64,000 nt of DNA from Verrucomicrobiota bacterium (lineage in GTDB: Bacteria > Verrucomicrobiota > Verrucomicrobiia > Chthoniobacterales > UBA10450). The notes beneath the pieces are model-generated. The model ran no database searches and was not told the origin of the DNA. It saw only the letters and a program-made list of their open reading frames with translations. The position numbers were made by a program, and so were the translations under genes. Location of the stretch: contig QHPD01000098.1 of the NCBI GenBank assembly GCA_003218975.1, positions 11,880 to 75,879 on the forward strand. The letters run 5' to 3'. This document shows, piece by piece, positions 35,001 to 52,411 of the stretch (the stretch's first letter is position 1; every line of letters starts with the position of its first letter).

Positions 35001-35083
35001 TCCCACGCCGCTTCCGGCGACGCTCCGATGTGCAGCGATACGCGCGGCGAATGTAGTTCAGGTTTGCTGCGCGCTCGGGGCAT
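32036..35083 (-). CDS. addB: AddB-like helicase-nuclease subunit B (PD-(D/E)xK)
   Basis: About 1000 aa partner ORF coupled to addA. C-terminal RIDLI...VVDYKTG nuclease motif. The ORF is open to 35128; ATG 35083 was chosen. Confidence 0.65.
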   Translation of the reverse strand: MPRARSKPELHSPRVSLHIGASPEAAWENVVRHWFEKIAARALEDQQPAAVVTASRSQAYFFRSRLLREGKSLVAVKFLSPPQLRELLRRHCDLQVPLREHLRLLLAVTAEQFTSKSSGDETLPVAKSIARDPDRFLHAIDQLRAAGWTFDEIDSPALREIATRFEEQVRECGFTFGYDADRVVLADARKFQPLFSNLLVFGFDAAHWPLWPLLHAATLSAGETSVVLSNPRDAACDLDETWIGTWEETFGPAEVIPLTNGRATASVTETLPVPASNVHFVIGRDTTQQARAIVALAAKFLADPRCERLGILFSGPGALARLVATFLQSAGIVHNDAIAHLAPSAFDDDAWRAWLELQQTPRLKPLFRFLRATEGQTFDELSVLQIQETLCRGYKNVLIDDIELLRDYCESSPELRHGNAVARELQKIRFLPESASLAEFLSQTRAIFSKLGWKERWNEVERFSRSWRDRLSTKFSKNSYLRWLRELLGAPSLERDDLGAHPYARVHLLASTDAEGQPWSHLIFAGLNDEAWPGFDGELAFVRDEQIEDLNRQNTTLNRRASKRGRQGEGHWSVRERKTLLLGPKEQRQIRRRQLLSLVESVSEAIGASASLYSEATPSRIANPSEFFSWIYFNAHSRGVSQQTLHSLEERTRDWLKDWSPADAQKVDSINVGRTRYAFDARRRLRPAGEYEFALRSPANEQKSLRVTQWEQALRCPAIVWMEIFLGVAPDDYNGDAWAGATGQWVHRWLADSVRNGGVRKFVEVNRADEIRQRISQEARELREHVAALCARRSKVLPDWWRSGWSNALYIADCLAAKVSDLHDWSEMAVEWPLGEPTLIPLSVNETLRVRGRIDLILARRKSQQSQIGYEDFWVVDYKTGRQRGFNLKELRRNDTPKRKFHKQLIEGRGVQLALYALAVHARGAEDVQLTLLSPAEQLEPQFHLADVLAQKDFWKELHRMQETGVFGMLGPIHADFGFVRRYPLATLPIDMDLLAEKWTLTHPAFVLEEEEQAK

Positions 35084-37016
35084 CGGCCAATTTAGCGCCT
35101 GCTGATTTCTTCGCGAGCACACGTTCATCTCCGATGCGCCGGGTCACACCCATGCGATCCAAGTATTCCAGAAACGGGATGATTACGCGGCGGGTGGTGC
35201 CAATTTTCTGTCGAATCTGACTGGCGGTGGCGGACCCCTTTTCGGATAGAAACTGGATGACTGCATCCTGCATCTGCTCGGCAGCGTCGCGAAGAACAAC
35301 GATCTCCCTGCTGATATCAACGATTTCACCTTGATCGATTAAAAAACGCAATGCCTGCTGAAGATTTCGATCTTCCGAAAACGCTGTGCGGTCGGGAGGA
35401 TCAAAACGTCTGGCCGAGAGCGTAGCGCGAATGTTTTCGGCGGCCGATACGAATTCCGGCGGCAGCAATGGACGGTGGCTGACGCGAGCAATTTGATTTT
35501 CGGAACGAACAAAACCGATTCGGGTTAGCTCTGAAATTACTGCGCTAAACAATTTCTCGGGCTGGATTTCTAACTCTGTCCGAAGCTCCGATACATCGAG
35601 TCCACGGCGCTCGGGATTTTTTTCATGGGCTCGGTCAATCAACCTGGCTGCTCTATCGATCACATCGTGCCAGTAAGATGCGTCGCCGGCGATATCGCCG
35701 GCCAGGACGATCTCGCCATGCTGTTTCAGCCGAGACAGTGCCTCACCGATTTCATCGGCGCCGAAGTTCGATTTCAACAGCAGCGTCTTGGATTCGGCGA
35801 ATCCATTACGTCTAAGCTGGGACCGCACGCAAACGTTGACGTCCTGCGGTGCGGTCGCGCGCTCTCTTAACAACTGAATGTGTGCGGCAGAGCGGAAATT
35901 GGCGCGATCGGCGTCGGGATCGAGCACGGTGCCGCCGGCAATGGTGTTTTGTTCGGAAGAATCGCGCAGGACAAACCGATCGCCAAGAAACGCAAGAATC
36001 GGTGAATCGAGTCGCAACTGAGCAATTGCGCTTTGGGCCGCTCCAAGCGCAGGTCCGTCGAATAATGTGATTTTCGCGGCCGTGCGACTGGTTCCAAAAT
36101 GAACTTGAACAGAACTGCCGTTCTTGATTGGACGCGCTGCAGGAGAGTTTCGCTTTAGTCGCGGCGATCTTTCTATAAGCACGTCAATTATTGCGTTCGG
36201 ATTACCGAGGCCCTGAACGGTAATGAGATCGCCGCGTTGCATTTCCTTCTCGCCAATTGAGACATCGGGCAGATTCATGGCCGTGCGCATTCCCGGCTGA
36301 GCCATTTCGATATCGCGGCCGTGGTTTTGAATGGAACGAACCCGAGCTGAAATATTTCGGGGCTGGACGACGACATCCTGGCCGCGCCGAATTGAACCGC
36401 CGCTCAGCGTGCCGGTGACGACTGTTCCGACGCCGCGAAGCACAAATGCGCGATCGACGAAAAGCCTCGGCTTTCCGATATCGCACGGTGGCCGCAACTG
36501 CGCCAACTCGGATGCGAGTGCGCTATTCAAATCTCTGATTCCTTCACCAGTGCGGACGGACGTCGGAACGATTTGGCAACTGGTGAATGGAGTTCGTTCC
36601 AACTCCTCACGGGTTTGAGTAGCGACGGTCTCGACGTTTCCCAAATCGCATTTGGTGAGCGCGACAGCGATGCGCTGAACGCCGAGATAACTTAGAATTT
36701 GCAAATGTTCTTCCGTTTGCGGCATCCAGCCGTCGTCTGCCGCGACGACCAGCAACGCGAGATCGACCGAGCCGACACCGGCGAGCATGTTGCGCACGAA
36801 ATCTTCGTGACCCGGAACATCGACAATTCCGACGTGGAATTTCTCGCCGTCAGGGCCGGTGAGATTCAGTTCGGCGAAACCCAGGTCGATAGTAATTCCG
36901 CGCGCTTTCTCTTCCGGTAAGCGGTCGGGATCGGTTCCGGTCAGCGCCTTAACCAGCGCGCTCTTGCCGTGATCGACGTGACCTGCGGTGGCGATGATGA
37001 AATGGCGAGTGGTCAC
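35058..37016 (-). CDS. selB: selenocysteine-specific translation elongation factor SelB
   Basis: G-domain [20 protein letters not shown] followed by winged-helix C-terminal domains. The ORF is open to 37052, but those first codons are encoded by a CTTCGTG repeat plus a T9/A9 run, so GTG 37016 is the likelier start. Confidence 0.9.
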
Positions 37017-37031
37017 GCCTTTTTTTTTAAC

Positions 37032-37058
37032 CACGAAGGACACGAAGCGCACGAAGGG
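37032..37058. repeat. three tandem 9-mers CACGAAGNN
   Basis: cacgaagga cacgaagcg cacgaaggg, read directly. Lies between the GxxExxY stop and selB, adjacent to a T9 homopolymer (37020-37028). Confidence 0.8.
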
Positions 37059-37430
37059 CTACAAGACGAAACGTTGGATTCCATTCTGCAACTTTGTGAC
37101 GTTAAAGTTGATCATCAAGCCGACCGGAATTTTCGACAGTCGCATGTACGTAAGAATTTGCGCCTGATGAATCGGGAGCAGAGTTTCAATGCACTTGATT
37201 TCCACAATCAGGTCGCCACTTACGAGCAGGTCGATTCGGTACCCGCAATCGAGCAGCATTCCTTTTGTAGCGAGCCGGCAATGGAAGCTCCATCTGGAAT
37301 GGAATCCCAGCATGTGAAGGTTCACACGCCAAGCATTGACGATATGTTGACTCCATAAACTCGGCCCGAGATTGCGATGCACTTCGAGGGCGCACCCGAT
37401 CACTTTGCGCGACAACTCATCAAACTCCAT
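37059..37430 (-). CDS. GxxExxY-family (PD-(D/E)xK-like) small protein, internally frame-scrambled
   Basis: N-terminus (ELSRKVIGCALEVHRNLGP) and C-terminus (GYRIDLLVSGDLIVEIKCIETLLPIHQAQILTYMRLSKIPVGLMINF) fit the family. The signature segment (EFMESTYRQCLACE...LPLPARYK) is encoded in another frame (37264-37362). Confidence 0.6.
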   Translation of the reverse strand: MEFDELSRKVIGCALEVHRNLGPSLWSQHIVNAWRVNLHMLGFHSRWSFHCRLATKGMLLDCGYRIDLLVSGDLIVEIKCIETLLPIHQAQILTYMRLSKIPVGLMINFNVTKLQNGIQRFVL

Positions 37431-37459
37431 GTCCGGGTCCTTCGTGATCTTCGTGATGA

Positions 37460-38866
37460 TTACTTGTCGCTGATGCATGCACCGCGAATCGCTTCGACTA
37501 CAAGATCGTCCTGTCGAGGAACAATGGTACGCAGATCGAGTTTGAATCGGTCGTCCGCAATGTAGCCGATAAGTGGCGGATTCGATGCGCGGAGACTCGC
37601 AGCGAAATCCGCCAGCGATGCGTTCTCGGGAACGATGTCCATTGTAACAGACGGCATGCTTAACTTCGGTAAGGTGCCGCCGCCGGCTTTGGCCTTGCCG
37701 CGGCCGATCGCAATTGTTAGTGGCAAGCCCTGCAATCGCGCACAAATCGCGGCACCGCGGACGCGCAATTCATCCTCCGAAATTCGCAGGAGCGCCAGGG
37801 CCGGGATTTTGGCGGTCGCTTTGCTGAGGTGAAGATCGACAGTCGATTGCAGAGCGGCGAGGCAGAGTTTATCGCAGCGCAGCGCGCGAAACAGCGGTTC
37901 GCGTCTCAATGCGGCGACGAACCGTTTCGTTCCAGCGAAAATTCCCGCTTGCGGGCCGCCAAATAATTTGTCGCCGCTGAAACAAACAAGATCGGCGCCG
38001 CTTTTCAACGCTTCAGCGGGAGTCGGCTCGTGGTCGGCAATTCCCAACTCTTCGGTTGCAACAACGACTCCGCTTCCCAGATCCTCGACAAACGGAACGC
38101 GCTTGTTTCGGGCCAGCGCGCTAATCTTCTCCGACGGTGGTGACTCGACAAAACCGCTCATGAAAAAATTACTACGATGAACTTTCAGGATCATTGCGGT
38201 CTTGGGACCGATGGCTCTCGCGTAATCGTTTACGGTGGTTTTGTTCGTAGCGCCGACCTCGCGTAACTCTGCTCCGGTCGCTTGAATGATTTCGCCAATC
38301 CGAAATCCACCGCCAATCTGGACCATTTCGCCGCGCGAGATGACTACCTCCGTTCGACGTTGAGCGTTCGATGTTGGGCGTTCGGTGTTTCCTTGGGCGA
38401 AATGCTGGACGATCAGCACCAACGCGGCCGCACAATTGTTGACGACTGCGGCCGCTTCCGCTTCGCAAATCCGCGCGAGCGCAGTCTCAATGTAAGTGCC
38501 GCGGTGACCACGCTCGCCTGCCACCAGATCGTATTCAAGATTCGAGTAACCTGATCCGATTTGCTTCAGTGCGCGGATTGCCTCGCTGGCAAGCGGCGCG
38601 CGGCCGAAATTCGTATGAATGACAATTCCGGTTCCATTGATGACCGGCTGAAGCCTGCTAGCGCAAAGTTCTTCAACCGAACGACGAACAAGCTCCACAA
38701 TCGGTTCGAATGCCGGGATTTTCTCGGCAGCGCGAACCTTGGAAAGTTCGCGCCGGATCAGGTCCACAATCACGGGACGCGGCAAATCGCAGCGCCCGAG
38801 GGCAACGAGAACTTTGTTTACCGAGGGAATTTCCCTTCGCGACAGGCGTTTTACTTGGTCGTGCAT
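37460..38866 (-). CDS. selA: L-seryl-tRNA(Sec) selenium transferase SelA
   Basis: PLP-lysine context FSGDKLFGGPQAGI and N-terminal IPSVNKVL. The ORF is open to 38926; ATG 38866 was chosen. Confidence 0.9.
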   Translation of the reverse strand: MHDQVKRLSRREIPSVNKVLVALGRCDLPRPVIVDLIRRELSKVRAAEKIPAFEPIVELVRRSVEELCASRLQPVINGTGIVIHTNFGRAPLASEAIRALKQIGSGYSNLEYDLVAGERGHRGTYIETALARICEAEAAAVVNNCAAALVLIVQHFAQGNTERPTSNAQRRTEVVISRGEMVQIGGGFRIGEIIQATGAELREVGATNKTTVNDYARAIGPKTAMILKVHRSNFFMSGFVESPPSEKISALARNKRVPFVEDLGSGVVVATEELGIADHEPTPAEALKSGADLVCFSGDKLFGGPQAGIFAGTKRFVAALRREPLFRALRCDKLCLAALQSTVDLHLSKATAKIPALALLRISEDELRVRGAAICARLQGLPLTIAIGRGKAKAGGGTLPKLSMPSVTMDIVPENASLADFAASLRASNPPLIGYIADDRFKLDLRTIVPRQDDLVVEAIRGACISDK

Positions 38867-39915
38867 ATTAATCCCGAACCCTTTCGGGAGCGGCGGGGAA
38901 CGATTTTGCCAATCACAGCGGCGCACAGTGTGCGCGCCTCGCGCAAAATCTTTAGCACTTTCTCCAGTTTGGCCTCAGCGACACAAAGCAGTAATCCGCC
39001 GCTGGTCTGCGCATCTGTCAGAAGAATTTTGCGCGCTCCATCTGTATCGCTCCAGTCAACAGCCACAGTTGTGGCATAAAGATTTTGGCGACTTCCTTTA
39101 GGGACGCAGCCCAGTTCGATAAGGGCGCCGATCTCCTTGCTGATCATTGGCACTGCGCTGGGGTCGACTTCGGCAGAAACTCGACTGGCGCGGCAGAGTG
39201 AAATCAAATGACCCATCAATCCGTAGCCGGTGATATCGGTGGCGGCGCGGACCAGGTGGCGTTCGGCAAGTTCGGCGCCAGCGGTGTTGATCTTCGACAT
39301 CAGGGCGACCACTTTTTGCTGGAGCAGGCGCGAAGCAATTCCGCGTTTGATCGCAGTAGTGGCGATGCCAGTGCCGAGCGGTTTCGTCAGAACCAACAGA
39401 TCGCCGGGACGCGCGTTCGCGTTTGTAGTAACGCGGTGAACATCCACAATTCCCGTGACGGCCAGACCATAAATGGGTTCGGCATTGCGAATGGAATGGC
39501 CACCGATGATAGCGCAACCGACCTCGGCTGCCTTGGCCATGCCGCCGCGCAAAATGGCCGAAACGACTTTGGGTCGAACCAGATCAGCAGGGAAACCAAC
39601 GATGTTGAGCGCGGTCAACGGGCGGCCGCCCATTGCAAAGATGTCGGAGAGCGAATTGGCCGCGGCGATTTGCCCGTAGGAAAATGGGTCGTCCACGATG
39701 GGTGTGAAAAAATCAACCGTCTGCACCAGGGCACGATGTCGATCCAGACGATAAACGCCGGCGTCGTCGAACGTGTTCGAGTTCACGATTACCTTTCCAT
39801 CGAGGGAAGTTGGAAGCTGCGGCAAAACTTGTCGCAGGGCCTGTTGGCTCAACTTCGACGCTCACCCGGCACACGATGAGAGCGAAGTCAGTTTGCGAAT
39901 TTGCTCACGCGACAT
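38851..39915 (-). CDS. selD: selenide, water dikinase SelD, a selenoprotein with in-frame UGA (Sec) at 39862-39864
   Basis: Extending the listed ORF 21 codons upstream through the TGA gives MSREQIRKLTSLSSCAGUASKL. This aligns with the SelD active-site loop (E. coli GAGCGCK), with Sec at the Cys17 position. An AAGGAAGGGGG Shine-Dalgarno-like sequence precedes ATG 39915. Confidence 0.9.
39806..39856 (-). promoter_or_regulatory. candidate SECIS stem-loop for the selD UGA
   Basis: On the mRNA, 5 nt after the UGA: GAAGUUG...CUGCG-(11 nt)-CGCAG...CAACUUC, two nested perfect stems found by eye. Confidence 0.4.
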
Positions 39916-39942
39916 CGAGGTCACCCCCTTCCTTAAATGGTT

Positions 39943-40008
39943 GATGTTTGAGGGTTGATGTTTGATGTGAAATCTTGGCTGCGAAGAACAAATCAAACCT
40001 CAAACATC
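39943..40008. repeat. 11-bp perfect inverted repeat GATGTTTGAGG / CCTCAAACATC between tRNA-Sec and selD
   Basis: Arms at 39943-39953 and 39998-40008. Built from TTGATGTTTGA-type short repeats. Confidence 0.7.
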
Positions 40009-40025
40009 GTCCATCAAACTTGAAA

Positions 40026-40119
40026 TGGCGGAGAGGATAGGAATCGAACCTACCTTGCCACTTGCGCGGCGACGACGGTTTTGAAGACCGCGAGGGCCAC
40101 CAGGCACCCTTCACTCTCC
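40026..40119 (-). tRNA. selC: tRNA-Sec (anticodon UCA)
   Basis: 94 nt. The anticodon arm GCGGU-CUUCAAA-ACCGU presents UCA. Long variable arm, T-loop GGTTCGATTCC, 3' GCCA, extended acceptor stem. Sits beside selD/selA/selB. Confidence 0.9.
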
Positions 40120-40286
40120 TAGAAAAAGAAAACGTCCAACGCCCAACGTCCAACATCCACCCTCGAACTTTTCGCGCGCGGAGCGCGCCTTGGAGTGCGG
40201 CGGCTTCACGCCGCTTTTGAACGTCAGACGCGCCGCGCCCAACTCCAATAAATCGTGAGGAGGCGTCCAACAACGAATGTCCTGGA

Positions 40287-40523
40287 CTATTTTGCTTTTT
40301 TGATCGCCTTAACGATATCGTCGAAGTCCGGCCAGTCCCCGGAATCGAGTTTGGAATGGAGCAGTTTGCCATTGGCGCGAACCTCGAAAGCGCCGCCGCT
40401 TGAGGGAATCAGCGTGAGCGACTTGATGCGCTCGCCGAGCTCAAGAATTTTGGTCGCCAAACTGACGGCCTTCGGCGTGTAGTTTCAAACGACGCAGTAT
40501 TCGATCGATACCTCGGTCTTCAC
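40287..40523 (-). CDS. SelW/Rdx-family selenoprotein (CxxU), UGA at 40485-40487
   Basis: Translation reading through the UGA: VKTEVSIEYCVVUNYTPKAVSLATKILELGERIKSLTLIPSSGGAFEVRANGKLLHSKLDSGDWPDFDDIVKAIKKAK. This matches the Rdx pattern (IEYCxxUxY ... GGxFEV..nG.l..SK). AAGGAG lies 7 nt upstream of GTG 40523. Not in the ORF track. Confidence 0.85.
40455..40477 (-). promoter_or_regulatory. candidate SECIS hairpin for the SelW-like UGA
   Basis: 7 nt after the UGA: CGCCGAA-GGCCGUCAG-UUUGGCG (7-bp stem including G-U pairs, 9-nt loop). Confidence 0.4.
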
Positions 40524-40580
40524 CAACGAGCTCCTTTCCGAAAACGAAACTATCGGTGCGACCGAACGCGGTCAAGAAAC

Positions 40581-40604
40581 TGTAGAGGCAGCCGTGTCGG
40601 CTGC
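40581..40604. repeat. second copy of the REP-like hairpin TGTAGAGGCAGCCGTGTCGGCTGC
   Basis: 23 of 24 identical to 9841-9864, with the same GCAGCCG-TGT-CGGCTGC hairpin. Confidence 0.7.
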
Positions 40605-40652
40605 AGCATTTTCCGGCGCTCACAGACGGCCGCTACAACAGTTAAGGAAACG

Positions 40653-41660
40653 TTAGCGATTACGCGTAGAAGCGGGCGCTTCGGCCTCGGTTTCCGGTCC
40701 GCCCGGTCCGAACAACATCGAGAAGATGGCGAAGACTTGCACTCCCGGCGAGTCCTCCGTGCACCCGAGAAGAGGCGATACGTCGAAGCGCATGTTGTGC
40801 GTTGGTTTCCATGCGATGGTCGGGCCGACGACGAAAGTATGAATCGGATCGCCACGAGTGTCCTTGTCTGTAAAATTACGATACTGCATTTCCACTCCAG
40901 CTTTGAGCCGTTCGTGCTCAAGCCAAAATGGGATCACCGCGCTCTGGGCGAACCCCCACTCGCGGCCGCGATCTAAACCGATTTCCTGTTCAAAAAACCA
41001 ATTCATTGCCCATTCGATTCGCTCAGAGAAATCTTCTGCCAGTAAAAGTCTGAACTCGTACGCATCAGGCATTTTGGGTTTTGCTTCCTCCGCCGTCGGA
41101 ACTTCTTCGCCGATTGATTCGAGGTTGAGATGTCGGAGCCGGGCCATTTCCTCGATCGCCATTTCCTCTTCCGGGGGACGCTCCTCATGCAAGATGCGAC
41201 CTGTGCCAAATTTGTATTCAGCAAACAGTGTCGGATTCAATGGAACCTTGTTCCAATCTGCGAGCGCGTAGCGTAGTTCGACACTGAAACTCTTGTTTTG
41301 AAAATCGCCATCGAAGCGCTCTTGAGACAACTCAAATGCCACGCCAAGCCGATGCGGCAGCCCGAGTTCGACTTCTTCGGTGAAGAGATGGTCGGGCGGC
41401 CCATGCCGGAAAACATCACCTTCGTAAGTTATCCCGCTGTAAATAGCGCCTGGGGGCAAAACATATGCGGTAACGAGTGGCGAAAAGCGTGTGCGCGAAA
41501 TTCCCGGCGGCGCGCCGTACGCGCTAGGTACTTCCTCGCCGGTGATGACGATCGGTTCCTCGTAAAGTGCCGACTGCGCCAGCGTCGAATGGTTAGCGGT
41601 AAAATAAACTAAACAAGCAGATGCGATCGATCCAACGAGTCGGCACGGGGTTTTACACAT
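40653..41660 (-). CDS. hypothetical secreted, possibly outer-membrane beta-barrel protein
   Basis: Signal-like N-terminus (MCKTPCRLVGSIASACLVYFTANHSTLAQS), alternating beta-strand-like segments, an acidic insert. No family recognised. Confidence 0.45.
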   Translation of the reverse strand: MCKTPCRLVGSIASACLVYFTANHSTLAQSALYEEPIVITGEEVPSAYGAPPGISRTRFSPLVTAYVLPPGAIYSGITYEGDVFRHGPPDHLFTEEVELGLPHRLGVAFELSQERFDGDFQNKSFSVELRYALADWNKVPLNPTLFAEYKFGTGRILHEERPPEEEMAIEEMARLRHLNLESIGEEVPTAEEAKPKMPDAYEFRLLLAEDFSERIEWAMNWFFEQEIGLDRGREWGFAQSAVIPFWLEHERLKAGVEMQYRNFTDKDTRGDPIHTFVVGPTIAWKPTHNMRFDVSPLLGCTEDSPGVQVFAIFSMLFGPGGPETEAEAPASTRNR

Positions 41661-42123
41661 TAGGTTTATATGTTCTATACGGGTTATGAGACGGAGAGGC
41701 CCGCGACGGTGGGATGGCAATCACTAAACCAGCGAGTAAAAACGTGGTTGCAGCAGAGAACAAGCAATAGCGACAGTAAGCGTGTAACACAAAGGCCTGC
41801 ACATACAGCAGCCAAAGAGTAACGAGAAACATCGCACAGACGAGCAGCGTAAGAAGCGCCCCCGCGCGCGTGTACCCGAAAGCCGCGAACGTGGCCAGGC
41901 TGAATACGCAGAAGTAACCGAGAGAGCCGAACGCCGCCACCGGCATTCCAGCGACCCTCGCATATGAACTGCCCAGCACACGGAAACAATCCGGAGATCC
42001 TCCGCAGACGAGCGTCTCTCCGGTCAGCGCTTGTACAGTGAGGTAGGTTGCGTCTGCCAGGCCGGCCAACGAAACGATCGCCGTGATCGTGTAGAGGATA
42101 ACTCGGAATCGCGAGGCGGTCAC
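41653..42123 (-). CDS. vitamin K epoxide reductase (VKOR) family protein
   Basis: Loop cysteines VCGGSPDC and the TM CxxC motif (YCRYC). 4-5 TM helices. Confidence 0.8.
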   Translation of the reverse strand: MTASRFRVILYTITAIVSLAGLADATYLTVQALTGETLVCGGSPDCFRVLGSSYARVAGMPVAAFGSLGYFCVFSLATFAAFGYTRAGALLTLLVCAMFLVTLWLLYVQAFVLHAYCRYCLFSAATTFLLAGLVIAIPPSRASPSHNPYRTYKPNV

Positions 42124-42791
42124 GCCTTTGATGGCTTTTGTTTCAAGGCGGCATTGATCGTTGCCCGCAGGCCATTAGGCGTTTTCTCGTTCGGTGCCAC
42201 CTCTTGATTATTGATAAAAACAGTCGGAGTGCTCTTCACTCCCAGCGAGTTGCCGCGCTCTTGATCGGAGTCAACGCGCTCCCTGACTTTTTCGCTTTGC
42301 ATGTCTTTTTTGAACTGATCTAGATTAAGTCCGAGCATTCCCGCATACGAATGGAAGAGCTCCTGCGCGTTGTCGGCTTTGCTCCAAACAGCCTGCTCCC
42401 GATATAACACCTCGTGCATTTCCCAGTAATGGCCTTGCAGACCGGCTGCTTCGGCAGCCAACGCAGCCTCGCGCGCAAACTTGTGCACTGGGAGCGGGAA
42501 ATTGCGAAAAATGACTTTTAAATTTGGATGATACTCCTTCAGGAGCCGGTCAATGAAACCCGCCATGCTGCCGCAGGGTGGACACTGGAAATCGCCAAAT
42601 TCTTCCAGCGTGACAGGAGCGTCCGGGTTACCGCGAACATGAACCGATTCGGCTGCGCCTTTGCCAGACACGTTTTTGTCTGTGGGAATCGTCAGAAGAT
42701 GCGGCCGTTTGGCCCGATACAGCATCGCTCCGCTCCCGAGTGTGGCCAATGCGACTGCACCTACAATGATAAAAGGCAGATAGCGTTTCAT
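42120..42791 (-). CDS. DsbA-family thiol:disulfide oxidoreductase
   Basis: Signal anchor plus a thioredoxin fold with FGDFQCPPCGS. 4-nt overlap with the VKOR gene. Confidence 0.85.
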   Translation of the reverse strand: MKRYLPFIIVGAVALATLGSGAMLYRAKRPHLLTIPTDKNVSGKGAAESVHVRGNPDAPVTLEEFGDFQCPPCGSMAGFIDRLLKEYHPNLKVIFRNFPLPVHKFAREAALAAEAAGLQGHYWEMHEVLYREQAVWSKADNAQELFHSYAGMLGLNLDQFKKDMQSEKVRERVDSDQERGNSLGVKSTPTVFINNQEVAPNEKTPNGLRATINAALKQKPSKA

Positions 42792-49439: not shown

Positions 49440-49868
49440 GAGGCTCACTTTGGTTTTTCAGTCAAGAAATTTTTTTTGGTCCGATAAAAATAAAATTCAT
49501 TTTTTTCTTGTCGATTTTAGCGGCGATTTCTAGTCTCAAGCCCGCTGGCGGGGCAGAGAAGGATTGAATGTGAATAAGTTGTGAACATTTCCGAGAAACT
49601 TTTAGCTGCGCGAATGAAACGCCCCCAAACCTCTCCAAACAAAATCGCTCCTGCGAATCGCAATCTCTCCACGGCCGGTCCACTACTGGACAGCACCGAA
49701 TTCAATTTCCCCTCGCATTTACGTGTTTCTGGCATTTTTTTCCAGCATTTCATTGGGAAATTGCACCGGGGACGACGCCGGAATGACTCTGGTGTCGCGG
49801 GACGATTTTCCCCGGCACAGGCCTCTGTGGCAATTGTGTAACGCTGTTAACAACTTGCTATGGATAAG
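49440..49868. other. candidate oriC region upstream of dnaA
   Basis: AT-rich tract at 49465-49520 and degenerate DnaA boxes: TGTGAATAA (49569-49577), TGTGAACAT (49580-49588), TGTGGCAAT (49825-49833), TATGGATAA (49859-49867). Classic position 5' of dnaA-dnaN. Confidence 0.45.
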
Positions 49869-51221
49869 AAATACGCCCAGCTCTGGCAGCGATTGGCGGC
49901 CGCACTGAAACCGCAAATCAGTACCGACAGCTTCAACCGTTGGTTTTCTGCCGTTGAACTGGTCGAAGCCACGGATAAATCGCTCACGCTCCGCGTTCCA
50001 AATAACATCTATCAATTTTGGATCGAGAGTAACTATATGACCGCATTGCAGAACGCCATTGTTACTGCACTTGGAAGCCCGCGCGCCGTGAAGTTTGCCT
50101 CGCCCTCGGGAACTGCCGGGCAAACACCTCTGGAGGATTTAAGTGCGCTAAAAGGGATTTCACCTGAGCCGTCGTCTGGCGCAAAAGCGAGTGCAAGCGT
50201 CCTCGGTCTCAATCCACGAAACACGTTCGAATCTTTTGTGGTCGGCCCGAACAATGAAATTGCGCACGCCGCGGCCCTTGCCGTAGCTCAAGCGCCGGCG
50301 CGGACTTACAATCCGCTGTTCATTTATGGCGGCGTTGGTCTCGGCAAGACGCATCTGATGCAGGCGATCGGTCAGTATGTCTGGGCTAAGAACAAAAACG
50401 TGAAGGTGATGTACCTCTCCAGCGAGCTCTTCATCAACGAATTCATCGATGCCATCCAGCACAGCAATTTGGTGAAATTCCGGAAGCGCTATCGCCAGGC
50501 AGATCTCCTTTTGATCGACGACATTCAGTTTCTCGGAGGCAAGGAGCGCTCGCAGGAAGAATTTTTCCACACGTTCAATACACTCTTCGACGGACATAAA
50601 CAAATTGTGCTCTCATGCGACCGTCCCGCGTCGGAGATCGCAAACCTTGAGCACCGCCTTGTTTCCCGCTTCGAGTGGGGGTTGACGGCAGAGCTTCAAC
50701 CGCCGGACATCGAGACGCGTCTGGCGATCTTGCGAAAAAAAGCGCGCACCATGCAGATCAAACTGCGCGACGAGGTTTTGCAGTTTTTGGCGAGTCGCAT
50801 TCGCACCAACATTCGTCGCTTGGAGGGTGCGCTGATGCGTGTGGCCTCGTTTGCATCACTCAGTGGAAAAGAGCTCACGCAGGAAGTGATTGAGCATTTG
50901 CTGAAAGATATCTTGCAGGAAGAAGGACGGCACTCTATCACGATCGAACAAATTCAGCGGCGTGTGGCCGAACACTTCGACGTACGGCTGGCCGATATGA
51001 CAAGCAAACGGCGCCCGGCCAGTATCGCTTTTCCGCGACAGGTAGCGATGTATCTGGCGCGCGAGCTCACCAAAGCCTCGCTGAATGAAATCGGAGATGC
51101 ATTCGGCGGACGCGATCACGGCACGGTCCTGCACGCTTGTAAATTGGTAAAGAGACGCATGACCGAGCAGGACAATATTCGCCAGACGATCTCGTTTATC
51201 GACAGCTCGCTGCAGAGGTAG
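49860..51221 (+). CDS. dnaA: chromosomal replication initiator DnaA
   Basis: AAA+ Walker A GGVGLGKTHL, box VII, and a C-terminal DNA-binding helix-turn-helix (GGRDHGTVLHA). Confidence 0.97.
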   Translation: MDKKYAQLWQRLAAALKPQISTDSFNRWFSAVELVEATDKSLTLRVPNNIYQFWIESNYMTALQNAIVTALGSPRAVKFASPSGTAGQTPLEDLSALKGISPEPSSGAKASASVLGLNPRNTFESFVVGPNNEIAHAAALAVAQAPARTYNPLFIYGGVGLGKTHLMQAIGQYVWAKNKNVKVMYLSSELFINEFIDAIQHSNLVKFRKRYRQADLLLIDDIQFLGGKERSQEEFFHTFNTLFDGHKQIVLSCDRPASEIANLEHRLVSRFEWGLTAELQPPDIETRLAILRKKARTMQIKLRDEVLQFLASRIRTNIRRLEGALMRVASFASLSGKELTQEVIEHLLKDILQEEGRHSITIEQIQRRVAEHFDVRLADMTSKRRPASIAFPRQVAMYLARELTKASLNEIGDAFGGRDHGTVLHACKLVKRRMTEQDNIRQTISFIDSSLQR

Positions 51222-51313
51222 CGTGACGATCTCAACTCGCGAAAGCTCTTGCGCTGACTTTGCGGTTGCCGAATAAAATCCAAAGCCTTACATCTTAGGT
51301 GCTCTTTTCCATC

Positions 51314-52411
51314 ATGAAATTCAGTGTTACAAAAGAAAAACTGCTCGAAGGCCTGCAACAGGTGCAAAACGTAGTCAGCACCCGCACCACCCTCCCCATT
51401 CTCTCCAACGTTCTGTTGCAAGCGAACGGCAACGAAATTCATCTCACCACTACCGATCTTGACGTGGGCGTGCGCGGTAGTTGCGAAGCGGATGTTGAAA
51501 AGGAGGGTGCGACTACTCTACCCGCGCGCCGGCTTTTCAACATCGTTCGCGAACTGCCATCCAGCGAAATTCAGATCGATGTCGACGGAAAGAACGCGGC
51601 TTCAATCCGCAGCGGCCAGAGCTTCTTTAAAATTCTCGGACTGCCGGAGGAAGAATTTCCGCCACTGCCGAAATTTGAGGATGCGAAAGTGGTCACGATT
51701 CGCCAAAAAGATTTGCGTCATGGTCTGCGCAAAACTTCTTACGCCATTTCCACCGATGAGACCCGCTACGTGCTCAACGGCGTTCTTTTCAGTTTCAAGG
51801 ATAACAAGCTCACGCTGGTGGCAACGGACGGGCGGCGACTGGCGATGGTAGAAATCGAACTGGAGTTCCCGCGCAGCCACGAAGCCGATATCATTGTGCC
51901 CACAAAAGCGATCACCGAATTGCAGCGGCTGCTCACCGATGACGGCGAAGTGAAAGTGAGCATGGGCAGCGGGCAGATCGCGTTCGATCTGAACAAAACG
52001 TTGTTGGTCTCGAAATTGATCGAAGGCAATTACCCGAATTATCGCCAGGTCATTCCCACAGAATCGAAAGAGCGGGTAAAACTCGAGCGCGAGACGTTCT
52101 TAAACGCGTTGCGGCGCGTTTCGCTGCTGGCGAGCGACAAATCAAATTCCATCAAGCTGAATTTCAGCAAGAACAATATCGACATCACTGCGAATACGCC
52201 CGAAGTCGGCGAAGCGAAAGAATCGTTGCCGGTCCAGTACAAAGGTCGCGATTTTTCCATTGCTTTTAATCCGGAATTTCTTATGGCGCCGCTGCGCGCC
52301 TTGGCCGAAGACGAAGTCTTCCTCGATCTCATCGACGAGATGAGCCCGGGCGTTCTGAAAATTCAGACGCCGTTTCTCTACGTCCTGATGCCTATGCGCA
52401 TCAGTTCTTGA
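51314..52411 (+). CDS. dnaN: DNA polymerase III beta sliding clamp
   Basis: MKFSVTKEKLLEGLQQVQNVV..RTTLPILSNVLL and the three-domain clamp pattern. Follows dnaA. Confidence 0.95.
   Translation: MKFSVTKEKLLEGLQQVQNVVSTRTTLPILSNVLLQANGNEIHLTTTDLDVGVRGSCEADVEKEGATTLPARRLFNIVRELPSSEIQIDVDGKNAASIRSGQSFFKILGLPEEEFPPLPKFEDAKVVTIRQKDLRHGLRKTSYAISTDETRYVLNGVLFSFKDNKLTLVATDGRRLAMVEIELEFPRSHEADIIVPTKAITELQRLLTDDGEVKVSMGSGQIAFDLNKTLLVSKLIEGNYPNYRQVIPTESKERVKLERETFLNALRRVSLLASDKSNSIKLNFSKNNIDITANTPEVGEAKESLPVQYKGRDFSIAFNPEFLMAPLRALAEDEVFLDLIDEMSPGVLKIQTPFLYVLMPMRISS

What the first reader, a model, noticed from the sequence alone, without database searches (positions are those of the whole stretch)
40287..40523. 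Unlisted 78-codon SelW/Rdx-family selenoprotein (CxxU) immediately upstream of tRNA-Sec
This gene is not in the six-frame track because of the in-frame TGA at 40485-40487. Read-through translation (VKTEVSIEYCVVUNYTPKAV...LIPSSGGAFEVRANGKLLHSKLDSGDWPDFDDIVKAIKKAK) fits the Rdx family: the CxxU redox motif after the first beta-strand, GGxFEV, and a ...SK...G.(F/W)P... tail. AAGGAG lies 7 nt before the GTG start. A 7-bp hairpin (CGCCGAA/UUUGGCG) starts 7 nt after the UGA. The listed ORF 40441-40623 is in the wrong frame.
Basis: seen in the sequence. Interest (0 to 1): 0.65.

Follow-up and report, generated by a model that had tools for sequence, protein, structure and literature searches.

The report
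SelW-like selenoprotein gene beside tRNA-Sec
This is a real 78-residue redox protein gene with a selenocysteine-coding UGA, heading the selenocysteine gene cluster of the abundant soil bacterium Candidatus Udaeobacter; the protein family is well known but is routinely cut short in public annotation.

Summary
On the minus strand, 40523-40287 encodes a 78-residue protein with an in-frame TGA at codon 13 (40487-40485). An AAGGAG sits 7 nt before the GTG start.

- **Family:** With Cys in place of Sec, the product matches Pfam Rdx over its full length (E 1e-18) and NCBIfam TIGR02174 "CXXU_selWTH" above cutoff.
- **Conservation:** In 161 related loci (Ca. Udaeobacter/Chthoniobacterales soil genomes and metagenome contigs, two clades) the codon is always TGA.
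- **Coding evidence:** Codons 1-12 vary almost only at third positions. Third positions of codons 14-23 are nearly frozen, which is an RNA-level constraint.
- **Context:** The gene heads a conserved same-strand cluster: SelW-like, tRNA-Sec, selD (also with a UGA), selA, selB. TGA is the commonest ordinary stop in the window, so the recoding is local.
- **One correction:** It has compensatory changes and the same GUU-capped apex as the strongly covarying selD hairpin.

Bacterial SelW-like selenoproteins and their mis-annotation are already described, so this is a new member of a known kind and of modest interest.

The parts
40531..40536 (-). Shine-Dalgarno AAGGAG, 7 nt before the GTG start
   Evidence: Read directly. 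GGAAAGGAG is the only conserved block in the otherwise variable 40 nt upstream across 81 loci.
40287..40523 (-). SelW-like / Rdx-family selenoprotein gene: 78 codons plus TAG stop, with GTG start
   Evidence: Translation. Pfam Rdx E 9.9e-19 over the full length. TIGR02174 is above cutoff. The frame is conserved in 161 loci. The predicted fold is b1-a1-b2-b3-b4-a2, and the top 23 PDB fold hits are all Rdx family.
40485..40496 (-). CxxU redox motif: Cys10 (UGC), Val, Val, Sec13 (UGA at 40487-40485)
   Evidence: It aligns with the CxxC of solved Rdx proteins 2ljk, 2fa8 and 3dex. TGA is invariant in 161/161 loci. Two single-contig variants read TGT or TTA.
40452..40470 (-). Best-supported SECIS hairpin GGCCGUCA-GUU-UGGCGACC. 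It has 8 pairs with one C.A mismatch in this window, and the loop GUU is at 40462-40460. It starts 14 nt after the UGA.
   Evidence: It is the RNAalifold consensus. In 87 distinct sequences, pair 31-49 is GC57/AU19/GU5, pair 34-46 is CG78/UG6/GU2, and pair 36-44 is UG70/CG16/UA1. Third positions of codons 19-23 are fully invariant. It has the same apical CA-GUU-UG as the selD hairpin.
40455..40477 (-). It overlaps the SECIS above and is not favoured.
   Evidence: It is present in the sequence. It shows no change on both sides, and G28.U42 is broken in 6 of 51 distinct sequences. Pairs 24-46 and 25-45 are lost in clade 2.
40026..40119 (-). tRNA-Sec (selC), anticodon UCA
   Evidence: ARAGORN. 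Rfam RF01852 at 66.9 bits, E 4e-13. It follows the SelW-like gene on the same strand in 152 of 160 related loci, with a spacer of 12-212 nt.
38851..39915 (-). selD (selenophosphate synthetase), itself a selenoprotein: ATG at 39915 and UGA codon 18 at 39864-39862 (..SSCAG-U-ASKL..)
   Evidence: Translation. TIGR00476 selD equivalog at 366 bits against a cutoff of 125. TGA in 81/81 Udaeobacter loci.
39817..39837 (-). selD SECIS hairpin CUGCGACAA-GUU-UUGCCGCAG. The loop is at 39828-39826, and the hairpin starts 24 nt after the UGA.
   Evidence: Pair 34-48 is CG51/AU10/GU8/UG2 and pair 35-47 is GC52/CG18/UG6. 0 of 500 shuffles reach the observed covariation. The hairpin is absent where selD has Cys.
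37460..38926 (-). selA (selenocysteine synthase). The conserved start is probably the ATG at 38866.
   Evidence: Pfam SelA E 3e-115. TIGR00474 at 466 bits against a cutoff of 268.
35058..37052 (-). selB (Sec-specific elongation factor) with C-terminal winged-helix mRNA-binding domains
   Evidence: Pfam GTP_EFTU, Beta-barrel_SelB, SelB-wing_2 and SelB-wing_3. TIGR00475 at 359 bits against a cutoff of 242.

Best explanation
The stretch 40523-40287 (minus strand) is a genuine gene for a 78-residue SelW-like (Rdx-family) selenoprotein of a Candidatus Udaeobacter-type soil verrucomicrobium.

**How translation proceeds.** Translation starts at the GTG behind an AAGGAG ribosome-binding site. At codon 13 the UGA is not read as stop. 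A short mRNA hairpin 14 nt downstream (GGCCGUCA-GUU-UGGCGACC, 40470-40452) is bound by the winged-helix tail of SelB. SelB delivers Sec-tRNA(Sec), so selenocysteine is inserted and the CVVU motif is completed.

**What the product is.** It is a small thioredoxin-like protein (b1-a1-b2-b3-b4-a2). Its Cys10/Sec13 pair sits at the b1/a1 junction and most likely cycles between selenol/thiol and selenenylsulfide as a thiol-dependent oxidoreductase.

**Gene cluster.** All components needed for the recoding are encoded directly downstream on the same strand: tRNA-Sec, selD (itself read through a UGA with a similar GUU-capped hairpin), selA and selB. The spacer to the tRNA is as short as 12-14 nt in relatives, so the gene is probably co-transcribed with tRNA-Sec.

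**Shown:** family membership, conservation of the UGA and the frame, RNA-level constraint after the UGA, hairpin covariation, and presence of the machinery.

**Inferred:** actual Sec insertion, SelB binding to this particular hairpin, the redox chemistry, and co-transcription.
For: **Family**
- Pfam Rdx matches the full length at E 9.9e-19.
- TIGR02174 CXXU_selWTH scores 57.2 bits against a cutoff of 34.2.
- phmmer hits the solved Rdx proteins MIEN1 2ljk, 2fa8, 3dex, 2p0g, 2ojl, 2obk and 2oka. The CxxC of those proteins aligns to C10..U13.
- The AF2 secondary-structure order matches the Rdx fold. The first 23 Foldseek PDB hits are all Rdx/SelW, including mouse SelW 2npb, at TM about 0.69.

**Recoding**
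- The codon is TGA in 81/81 distinct genome loci and 80/80 metagenome loci.
- For codons 1-12, the minor-allele fraction at codon positions 1/2/3 is 0.016/0.004/0.213, which shows the region before the UGA is translated.
- Third-position diversity in codons 14-23 is 0.04, against 0.312 elsewhere (Mann-Whitney p = 6e-6). This is the lowest 10-codon window in the gene.
- TGA is the ordinary stop of 8 of 17 family-supported genes in the window.

**SECIS**
- RNAalifold picks the GUU hairpin as the consensus.
- Compensatory pairs are seen across two clades.
- The selD hairpin has the same apex and strong covariation.
- A whole-window scan looked for a TGA followed by a GU(U/C)-triloop hairpin with ORF continuity. 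It found only SelW-like, selD and one off-frame hit.

**Machinery**
- tRNA-Sec.
- selD, selA and selB all score above their equivalog cutoffs. SelB carries the wing_2 and wing_3 domains.

**Expression**
- Soil metatranscriptome contigs from relatives cover the gene across the start codon and the UGA. One contig joins the gene's 3' end to tRNA-Sec.
Against: - There is no direct evidence of selenium in the protein; everything is comparative.
- The single-sequence fold of the region is no better than shuffles (z = 0.09).
- In this window the favoured hairpin has a C.A mismatch, which is C-G in 34 of 81 relatives.
- The region is so conserved that the three hairpin models all keep more than 90% of cells paired. 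The choice of SECIS therefore rests on a few covarying pairs and on the analogy with selD.
- The whole-window pattern scan was designed after both hairpins had been seen.
- The structure model is of low confidence (pLDDT 64). It was made from the natural Cys variant P0002, not from the window's own sequence.
- The RNA evidence comes from assembled contigs of related strains. DNA carry-over in those libraries cannot be excluded.
- No sigma-70-like promoter was found.
Confidence: 0.93

Rival explanations
1. The UGA is a true stop. The real gene would be only the 57-residue C-terminal ORF starting at TTG 40460, as public pipelines annotate it ('selenoprotein W-related protein', 57 aa). The upstream 12 codons would be untranslated leader.
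For: About 115 of the 120 best database relatives are gene calls of 56-57 aa that start at this L/M codon. TGA is a common stop in this genome.
Against: - The 12 upstream codons are conserved as protein, with variation concentrated at third positions.
- The Rdx profile needs residues 4-76, and the first strand and the redox motif lie before the TTG.
- The conserved RBS precedes the GTG, not the TTG.
- The TTG lies inside the invariant hairpin.
- The 57-aa calls are what a gene caller produces for any selenoprotein. This truncation is documented for bacterial SelW genes (PMC4607533).
Confidence: 0.02
2. The UGA is read through, but not as selenocysteine. Near-cognate Trp or Cys insertion, or a locally different code, would give CVVW or CVVC.
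For: Some pipelines translated relatives as CxxW or CxxG (P0123, P0132, P0128). One metagenome contig has TGT (Cys) at this codon.
Against: - The W and G forms are artefacts of alternative translation tables. P0123 even runs on into the translated tRNA-Sec.
- TGA terminates many normal genes here.
- A complete Sec machinery and a tRNA-Sec lie directly downstream.
- RNA-level conservation right after the UGA is the SECIS signature.
- The position aligns with the catalytic Cys/Sec of the family.
Confidence: 0.03
3. The gene is a selenoprotein, but its SECIS is the reader's hairpin CGCCGAA/UUUGGCG (40477-40455) with the 9-nt loop GGCCGUCAG, which also contains a GU. Alternatively it is the long MFE stem that includes the UGA.
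For: The long stem is the single-sequence MFE at -20.1 kcal/mol and is the MFE in 38 of 81 relatives.
Against:
- Its pairs 24-46 and 25-45 are unpaired in the 15-16 distinct clade-2 sequences.
- Third positions in its 5' arm (codons 16-18) vary, whereas codons 19-23 are frozen.
- In the long stem, C10-G46 is broken in 35 of 87 distinct sequences, and pairs 8-48, 21-36 and 25-33 fail in clade 2.
- Neither model gives the apex shared with selD.
Confidence: 0.12
4. The gene is a decaying pseudogene of a CxxC Rdx gene that acquired a nonsense mutation.
For: Cys-containing homologues (CxxC) are common among the 50%-identity representatives.
Against: - The TGA is fixed in 161 loci from two clades at about 60% amino-acid identity.
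- There are no frameshifts, purifying selection acts on both sides of the TGA, and the RBS is conserved.
Confidence: 0.005

Closest known systems
Bacterial SelW-like selenoproteins (Rdx family; Pfam PF10262, NCBIfam TIGR02174 CXXU_selWTH). They were described in the Sargasso Sea and GOS selenoproteomes (PMC1088965, PMC2398784) and in complete genomes (PMC1794560).
   Same: Small size (about 75-90 aa). CxxU motif right after the first strand. GGxFE and SK..G.(F/W)P motifs. UGA followed by an in-ORF bacterial SECIS with a G in a small apical loop. Few Cys homologues within Sec-using lineages.
   Different: This is a lineage-specific cluster: the nearest 50%-identity representative outside it is 60% identical. 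It scores below the equivalog cutoff of the Campylobacter-type model NF041051 (74 against 88 bits). It is fixed at the head of a selC-selD-selA-selB cluster. I did not find that arrangement described for SelW-like genes in the papers I read.
Mammalian selenoprotein W and MIEN1/Rdx12 (PDB 2npb, 2ljk)
   Same: Thioredoxin-like b-a-b-b-b-a fold and a CxxU/CxxC motif at the same place. MIEN1 is the best sequence hit to a solved structure (E 3e-8).
   Different: The eukaryotic proteins use a 3'-UTR SECIS and SBP2/eEFSec. Here the SECIS lies inside the ORF, 14 nt after the UGA, and a bacterial SelB is used. Sequence identity is only about 27-33%.
Sec-trait gene clusters that carry their own client selenoprotein, such as the selA-selB-selC operons with neighbouring fdhA in Proteobacteria (PMC1794560)
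   Same: The Sec-decoding genes are clustered together with at least one selenoprotein gene. That paper argues this arrangement is what keeps the trait maintained or transferable. SelD as a second selenoprotein in the cluster is also noted there.
   Different: The linked client here is a SelW-like protein rather than formate dehydrogenase. The order is client, tRNA-Sec, selD(U), selA, selB, with the tRNA lying between two selenoprotein ORFs.
E. coli fdhF and Moorella thermoacetica SECIS-SelB recognition.
   Same: A hairpin shortly after the UGA, with a G-U in the apical loop, is recognised by the last winged-helix domain of SelB. PF09107 SelB-wing_3 is present here.
   Different: The loop here is a GUU triloop closed by A-U and C-G. 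The spacing from the A of the UGA to the loop G is 22 nt for SelW-like and 33 nt for selD. No bulged U is evident.

Membership tests
Rdx / SelW-SelT-SelH family (Pfam PF10262; NCBIfam TIGR02174) | Profile match above the curated threshold over the whole domain | tested here: met
   PF10262 scores 67.8 bits against 22.6, covering profile positions 1-74 of 74. TIGR02174 scores 57.2 against 34.2.
Rdx / SelW-SelT-SelH family (Pfam PF10262; NCBIfam TIGR02174) | CxxC/CxxU redox motif directly after strand b1 | tested here: met
   C10-V-V-U13 aligns with CEPC of 2ljk and CTQC of 2fa8 and 3dex. In the model, strand E4-7 is followed by helix H16-27.
Rdx / SelW-SelT-SelH family (Pfam PF10262; NCBIfam TIGR02174) | Thioredoxin-like b1-a1-b2-b3-b4-a2 fold | tested here: met
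   The AF2 element order is E-H-E-E-E-H. Foldseek ranks 1-23 are all Rdx family structures at TM 0.59-0.69. The model confidence is low (pLDDT 64), and the model was made from the 90%-identical Cys variant P0002.
Rdx / SelW-SelT-SelH family (Pfam PF10262; NCBIfam TIGR02174) | Thiol/selenol oxidoreductase activity | not testable with these tools
   This needs purified protein. The function of bacterial members is unknown in the literature that was read (PMC1088965).
NCBIfam NF041051 SelTWH_Campy (equivalog) | Score above the equivalog cutoff | tested here: not met
   74.1 bits against a cutoff of 88. It is a related subfamily, not this equivalog.
Bacterial selenoprotein (SelB/SECIS-dependent UGA recoding) | In-frame UGA at a position occupied by catalytic Cys in homologues | tested here: met
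   The CxxC homologues include P0125, P0127, P0133, P0134 and P0139.
Bacterial selenoprotein (SelB/SECIS-dependent UGA recoding) | UGA and reading frame conserved on both sides in orthologues | tested here: met
   TGA in 161/161 loci. The third-position variation pattern is seen both upstream and downstream of the UGA.
Bacterial selenoprotein (SelB/SECIS-dependent UGA recoding) | Stem-loop shortly downstream of the UGA with a small apical loop that contains G | tested here: met
   The GUU-triloop hairpin at 40470-40452 begins 14 nt after the UGA. It has compensatory changes and is the RNAalifold consensus. The criterion is worded as in PMC1088965. Rfam has no bacterial SECIS hit here.
Bacterial selenoprotein (SelB/SECIS-dependent UGA recoding) | selA, selB, selC and selD present in the genome | tested here: met
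   All four lie within 5.5 kb downstream on the same strand.
Bacterial selenoprotein (SelB/SECIS-dependent UGA recoding) | Selenium actually incorporated (75Se labelling or mass spectrometry) | not testable with these tools
   The organism is uncultured. There is only transcript-level support from metatranscriptome contigs.

The most novel reading that the evidence does not exclude
The SelW-like protein may not be just a client of the Sec machinery but a working part of the selenium-utilisation module. It could hand reduced selenium to SelD as a redox carrier. Alternatively, its early UGA could gauge Sec-tRNA(Sec) supply at the head of a transcript that also carries tRNA-Sec, selD, selA and selB.

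Three observations are compatible with this reading but do not prove it. The fixed order SelW-like, tRNA-Sec, selD, selA is kept across two clades at about 60% identity. The spacers are as short as 12-14 nt. SelW-like stays Sec-containing even where SelD has switched to Cys.
Probability: 0.12. Interest if true: 0.6.

Novelty: new member of a known kind. Interest (0 to 1): 0.3.

Why it matters
- **Annotation.** The finding corrects a systematic annotation error. Hundreds of public gene calls for this protein are 57-residue stumps that lack the active site. selD in the same cluster is truncated in the same way.
- **Biology of the host.** The Ca. Udaeobacter lineage, known here only from soil metagenomes, maintains the full selenocysteine trait in one compact cluster with a SelW-like protein as its fixed partner. 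This bears on selenium demand in soils and on what keeps the Sec trait alive in a lineage.
- **SECIS rule.** The paired SelW-like and selD hairpins give a lineage-specific SECIS pattern: a stem capped by CA-GUU-UG. It could be used to scan Verrucomicrobiota genomes for further selenoproteins.
- **Limits.** None of this changes current understanding of selenoproteins.

Tried and rejected
- **Rfam.** An E-value-mode scan of 39500-41000 found only tRNA-Sec and no SECIS family. The microRNA and snoRNA hits at 39935-40016 are artefacts of a long intergenic hairpin.
- **Single-sequence folding.** Folding the UGA region gave a long stem with z = 0.09, which is not informative. That stem was later rejected by comparison.
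- **Covariation within Udaeobacter.** On its own this could not separate the hairpin models, because the region is 96% identical. A second clade from the metagenome scan was needed.
- **Promoter scan.** No sigma-70-like site was found in 39800-40750. The promoter remains unknown.
- **Repeat motif.** The CGTCCAACG-like motif seen in the spacer is not enriched window-wide: 23 matches against 23.5 expected.
- **Upstream 355-aa ORF.** Pfam and NCBIfam gave nothing significant. The only hit was a faint Phenol_MetA_deg match at E 0.27.
- **Literature.** A search for Udaeobacter plus selenocysteine found no relevant paper. Two 2026 selenoproteome papers do not mention SelW or Verrucomicrobia in their main text.
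- **Structure prediction.** The alignment was shallow, so the model has low confidence. It was used only for topology and for the ranking of fold hits.

Full report
**1. The observation**

Reading the minus strand and translating 40523-40287 gives VKTEVSIEYCVV*NYTPKAVSLATKILELGERIKSLTLIPSSGGAFEVRANGKLLHSKLDSGDWPDFDDIVKAIKKAK*.
- The internal stop is TGA at 40487-40485.
- AAGGAG lies at 40536-40531, 7 nt before the GTG.
- The arms CGCCGAA (40477-40471) and UUUGGCG (40461-40455) are present.
- The mechanical ORF list contains only the 57-aa tail (40287-40460) and a wrong-frame 60-aa ORF (40441-40623).
- ARAGORN finds a single tRNA in the whole window: tRNA-Sec at 40119-40026 on the same strand. 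Rfam confirms it (RF01852, 66.9 bits).

**2. What the protein is**

With Cys substituted for the UGA, the product matches two curated family models.
- Pfam Rdx (PF10262) matches from profile position 1 to 74 of 74 at E 9.9e-19.
- NCBIfam TIGR02174 "CXXU_selWTH" scores 57.2 bits against a cutoff of 34.2. The Campylobacter-type equivalog NF041051 is missed, at 74 against 88 bits.

Against solved structures it finds only Rdx-family proteins: MIEN1 2ljk, Agrobacterium 2fa8, Streptomyces 3dex, Vibrio 2p0g, and 2ojl, 2obk and 2oka. C10 and U13 lie on their CxxC.

An AlphaFold model was made from the 90%-identical natural Cys variant P0002. Its confidence is low (pLDDT 64), but it has the element order strand-helix-strand-strand-strand-helix. 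The first 23 Foldseek hits in the PDB are all Rdx/SelW proteins, including mouse SelW, at TM about 0.69.

**3. Is the UGA really decoded?**

*Related loci.* A scan of one genome per species returned 80 loci with 86-94% protein identity. Nearly all are labelled Candidatus Udaeobacter, Chthoniobacterales or Verrucomicrobiota, from soil MAGs.

*Conservation across the UGA*.
- All 81 nucleotide sequences are distinct, and codon 13 is TGA in all of them.
- In codons 1-12, upstream of the UGA, the minor-allele fraction at codon positions 1/2/3 is 0.016/0.004/0.213. This is the signature of a translated region.
- The 40 nt before the start are poorly conserved (0.46), except for the ribosome-binding site.

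*RNA-level constraint after the UGA*.
- Third-position diversity is 0.04 in codons 14-23, against 0.312 in the rest of the gene (Mann-Whitney p = 6e-6).
- This is the lowest 10-codon window in the gene.
- Codons 19-23 do not vary at all.
- Such a constraint, laid on top of coding directly after the UGA, is what a bacterial SECIS produces.

*No global reassignment.* TGA is the normal stop of 8 of 17 family-supported genes in the window.

*Public annotation.* About 115 of the 120 best relatives in the public protein databases are 56-57-aa calls starting at codon 22, often named "selenoprotein W-related protein". These are truncation artefacts.

*Rare variants.* Two single short contigs read TGT (Cys) and TTA (Leu) at codon 13, with the downstream hairpin intact. 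They are rare variants or sequencing errors.

**4. The machinery and the locus**

Directly downstream on the same strand lie the following genes.
- tRNA-Sec.
- selD: ATG at 39915, an in-frame TGA at 39864-39862 giving ..SSCAG-U-ASKL.. at the position of the catalytic Cys, and TIGR00476 at 366 bits.
- selA: TIGR00474 at 466 bits.
- selB: TIGR00475 at 359 bits, with the SelB-wing_2 and SelB-wing_3 mRNA-binding domains.

tRNA-Sec follows the SelW-like gene on the same strand in 152 of 160 related loci. Most of the exceptions are contig ends. The spacer is 12-212 nt.

selD carries TGA in all 81 Udaeobacter loci.

**5. Which hairpin is the SECIS?**

Three overlapping models fit this one sequence.
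- (b) The long single-sequence MFE stem that includes the UGA (z = 0.09, so uninformative).
- (c) GGCCGUCA-GUU-UGGCGACC at 40470-40452.

Within Udaeobacter the region is 96% identical, and neither (a) nor (c) can be excluded. Four lines of evidence favour (c).
- RNAalifold chooses (c) as the consensus.
- The frozen synonymous sites (codons 19-23) coincide with (c), while third positions in the 5' arm of (a) vary.
- The selD hairpin CUGCG(A/G)CAA-GUU-UUGCCGCAG (39837-39817) is strongly supported by covariation. Pair 34-48 is CG51/AU10/GU8/UG2 and pair 35-47 is GC52/CG18/UG6, and 0 of 500 shuffles reach the observed score. It has the same apex, C-A-(A)-GUU-(U)-U-G, as (c). One SelB has to read both hairpins.
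- A metagenome scan brought in a second clade (L083-L112, about 60% protein identity), again with TGA in 80/80 loci. Its hairpin at the same position is a perfect 8-bp stem, AGCCGCCA-GUU-UGGCGGCU.

Counts over 161 sequences (87 distinct) are.
- Model (c): pair 31-49 is GC57/AU19/GU5, pair 34-46 is CG78/UG6/GU2, and pair 36-44 is UG70/CG16/UA1.
- Model (a) loses pairs 24-46 and 25-45 in clade 2.
- Model (b) loses several pairs in clade 2.

A crude whole-window scan looked for a TGA, then 15-40 nt later a GU(U/C) triloop on at least 7 pairs, with ORF continuity. It returns only SelW-like, selD and one off-frame hit inside a nuclease gene. The pattern was defined after both hairpins had been seen, so this only shows that the combination is rare.

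As a natural control, clade-2 loci in which SelD has Cys (TGT/TGC) have lost the selD hairpin sequence. Their SelW-like gene keeps both TGA and hairpin.

I put about 0.8 on model (c).

**6. Expression**

Soil metatranscriptome assemblies contain contigs from close relatives (85-99% identity) that cover the gene across the start codon and the UGA (for example 40402-40579 and 40344-40524). They also cover tRNA-Sec and the 5' end of selD. One contig links the gene's 3' end to tRNA-Sec through a strain-specific spacer.

This is consistent with transcription of the full ORF and with co-transcription. However, these are assembled contigs, and DNA carry-over cannot be excluded.

**7. Mechanism**

*Shown:*
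- an Rdx-family ORF interrupted by a conserved UGA at the catalytic position;
- coding constraint on both sides of the UGA;
- an RNA constraint and a covarying hairpin 14 nt downstream;
- a complete bacterial Sec machinery next door.

*Inferred:*
- SelB bound to Sec-tRNA(Sec) docks on the GUU hairpin and inserts Sec at codon 13;
- the CVVU pair at the b1/a1 junction acts as a selenenylsulfide/selenol-thiol redox centre, as proposed for the family (PMC1088965);
- the gene and tRNA-Sec share a transcript.

The cellular substrate is unknown, as it is for all bacterial family members.

**8. Comparison with what is known, and novelty**

- Bacterial SelW-like CxxU selenoproteins have been known for two decades. 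They were the most abundant selenoprotein family in the Sargasso Sea data (48 genes; PMC1088965).
- They have few Cys homologues in Sec-using organisms (PMC1794560).
- SelW genes being truncated or missed in annotation is documented (PMC4607533).
- Clusters of sel genes with a linked client selenoprotein, usually fdhA, and SelD as a second selenoprotein, are also described (PMC1794560).

What is specific here is the lineage (Ca. Udaeobacter/Chthoniobacterales), the fixed order SelW-like, tRNA-Sec, selD(U), selA, selB in two clades, and the shared GUU-capped SECIS. I found no paper that links Udaeobacter to selenoproteins.

The verdict is a new member of a known kind, of modest interest.

Noticed in passing
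window 38851-39915 (minus); UGA at 39862-39864; hairpin 39817-39837: selD is itself a selenoprotein whose N-terminus (MSREQIRKLTSLSSCAG-U-) is missing from the ORF list for the same reason. TGA is conserved in 81/81 Udaeobacter loci. The downstream hairpin CUGCG(A/G)CAA-GUU-UUGCCGCAG shows clear compensatory changes.
   Followed up: yes
L092, L093, L100, L111, L112 (clade-2 metagenome loci): In these relatives SelD has Cys (TGT/TGC) at the Sec position and the selD hairpin sequence is gone. The neighbouring SelW-like gene keeps its TGA and SECIS. This is a natural control for the hairpin's role.
   Followed up: partly
window 39935-40024 (between tRNA-Sec and selD): There is an imperfect hairpin of about 80 nt built from 14-nt direct repeats (GGTTGATGTTTGAG). 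It folds at -27.4 kcal/mol with z = -2.9 and causes spurious microRNA hits in Rfam. It could be a processing site or a terminator after the tRNA, but its function is unknown.
   Followed up: partly
window 40133-40165 and 40264-40282 (spacer between the SelW-like gene and tRNA-Sec): Short tandem CGYCCAA-type repeats lie in the spacer. The motif is not enriched window-wide (23 matches against 23.5 expected). The spacers of related strains carry different short repeats.
   Followed up: partly
window 37059-37745 (minus), between selA and selB: An ORF with a PD-(D/E)XK_3 nuclease-superfamily domain (PF13366, E 2e-27) sits in the 400-nt gap between selA and selB. In relatives such as L004, selA and selB abut directly, so this looks like an insertion in this genome.
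   Followed up: partly
window 40653-41720 (minus), directly upstream of the SelW-like gene: This 355-aa ORF has no significant family match; the only hit is a faint Phenol_MetA_deg match at E 0.27. Its C-terminal ...EAPASTRNR end recurs upstream of the SelW-like gene in other loci (L004, L011, L018, L020, L021). It is followed by a terminator-like hairpin at 40565-40553.
   Followed up: partly
window 41653-42791 (minus): A VKOR-family protein and a DsbA-like thioredoxin (with a CPPC motif) overlap by 4 nt just upstream. This is a disulfide-bond formation pair next to the selenoprotein cluster.
   Followed up: no
window 49860-52411 (plus): dnaA and dnaN are adjacent, so the Sec cluster lies about 10 kb from the probable chromosomal replication origin.
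   Followed up: no
window 40475-40495 (minus; alignment columns 6-12 with 21-26): RNAalifold also predicts a small helix that brackets the UGA. Pair 9-23 switches UA (67) to CG (19), but pairs 7-25 and 8-24 fail in clade 2. These changes coincide with amino-acid changes, so its reality is unclear.
   Followed up: partly
P0123, P0132, P0136, P0137, P0142, P0143, P0128 (50%-identity representatives): Many public Rdx-family entries read CxxW or CxxG. These are evidently TGA translated under table 4 or table 25 by metagenome pipelines. P0123 even continues into a translated tRNA-Sec. Sec-containing members are therefore hidden in databases under wrong residues as well as truncations.
   Followed up: partly
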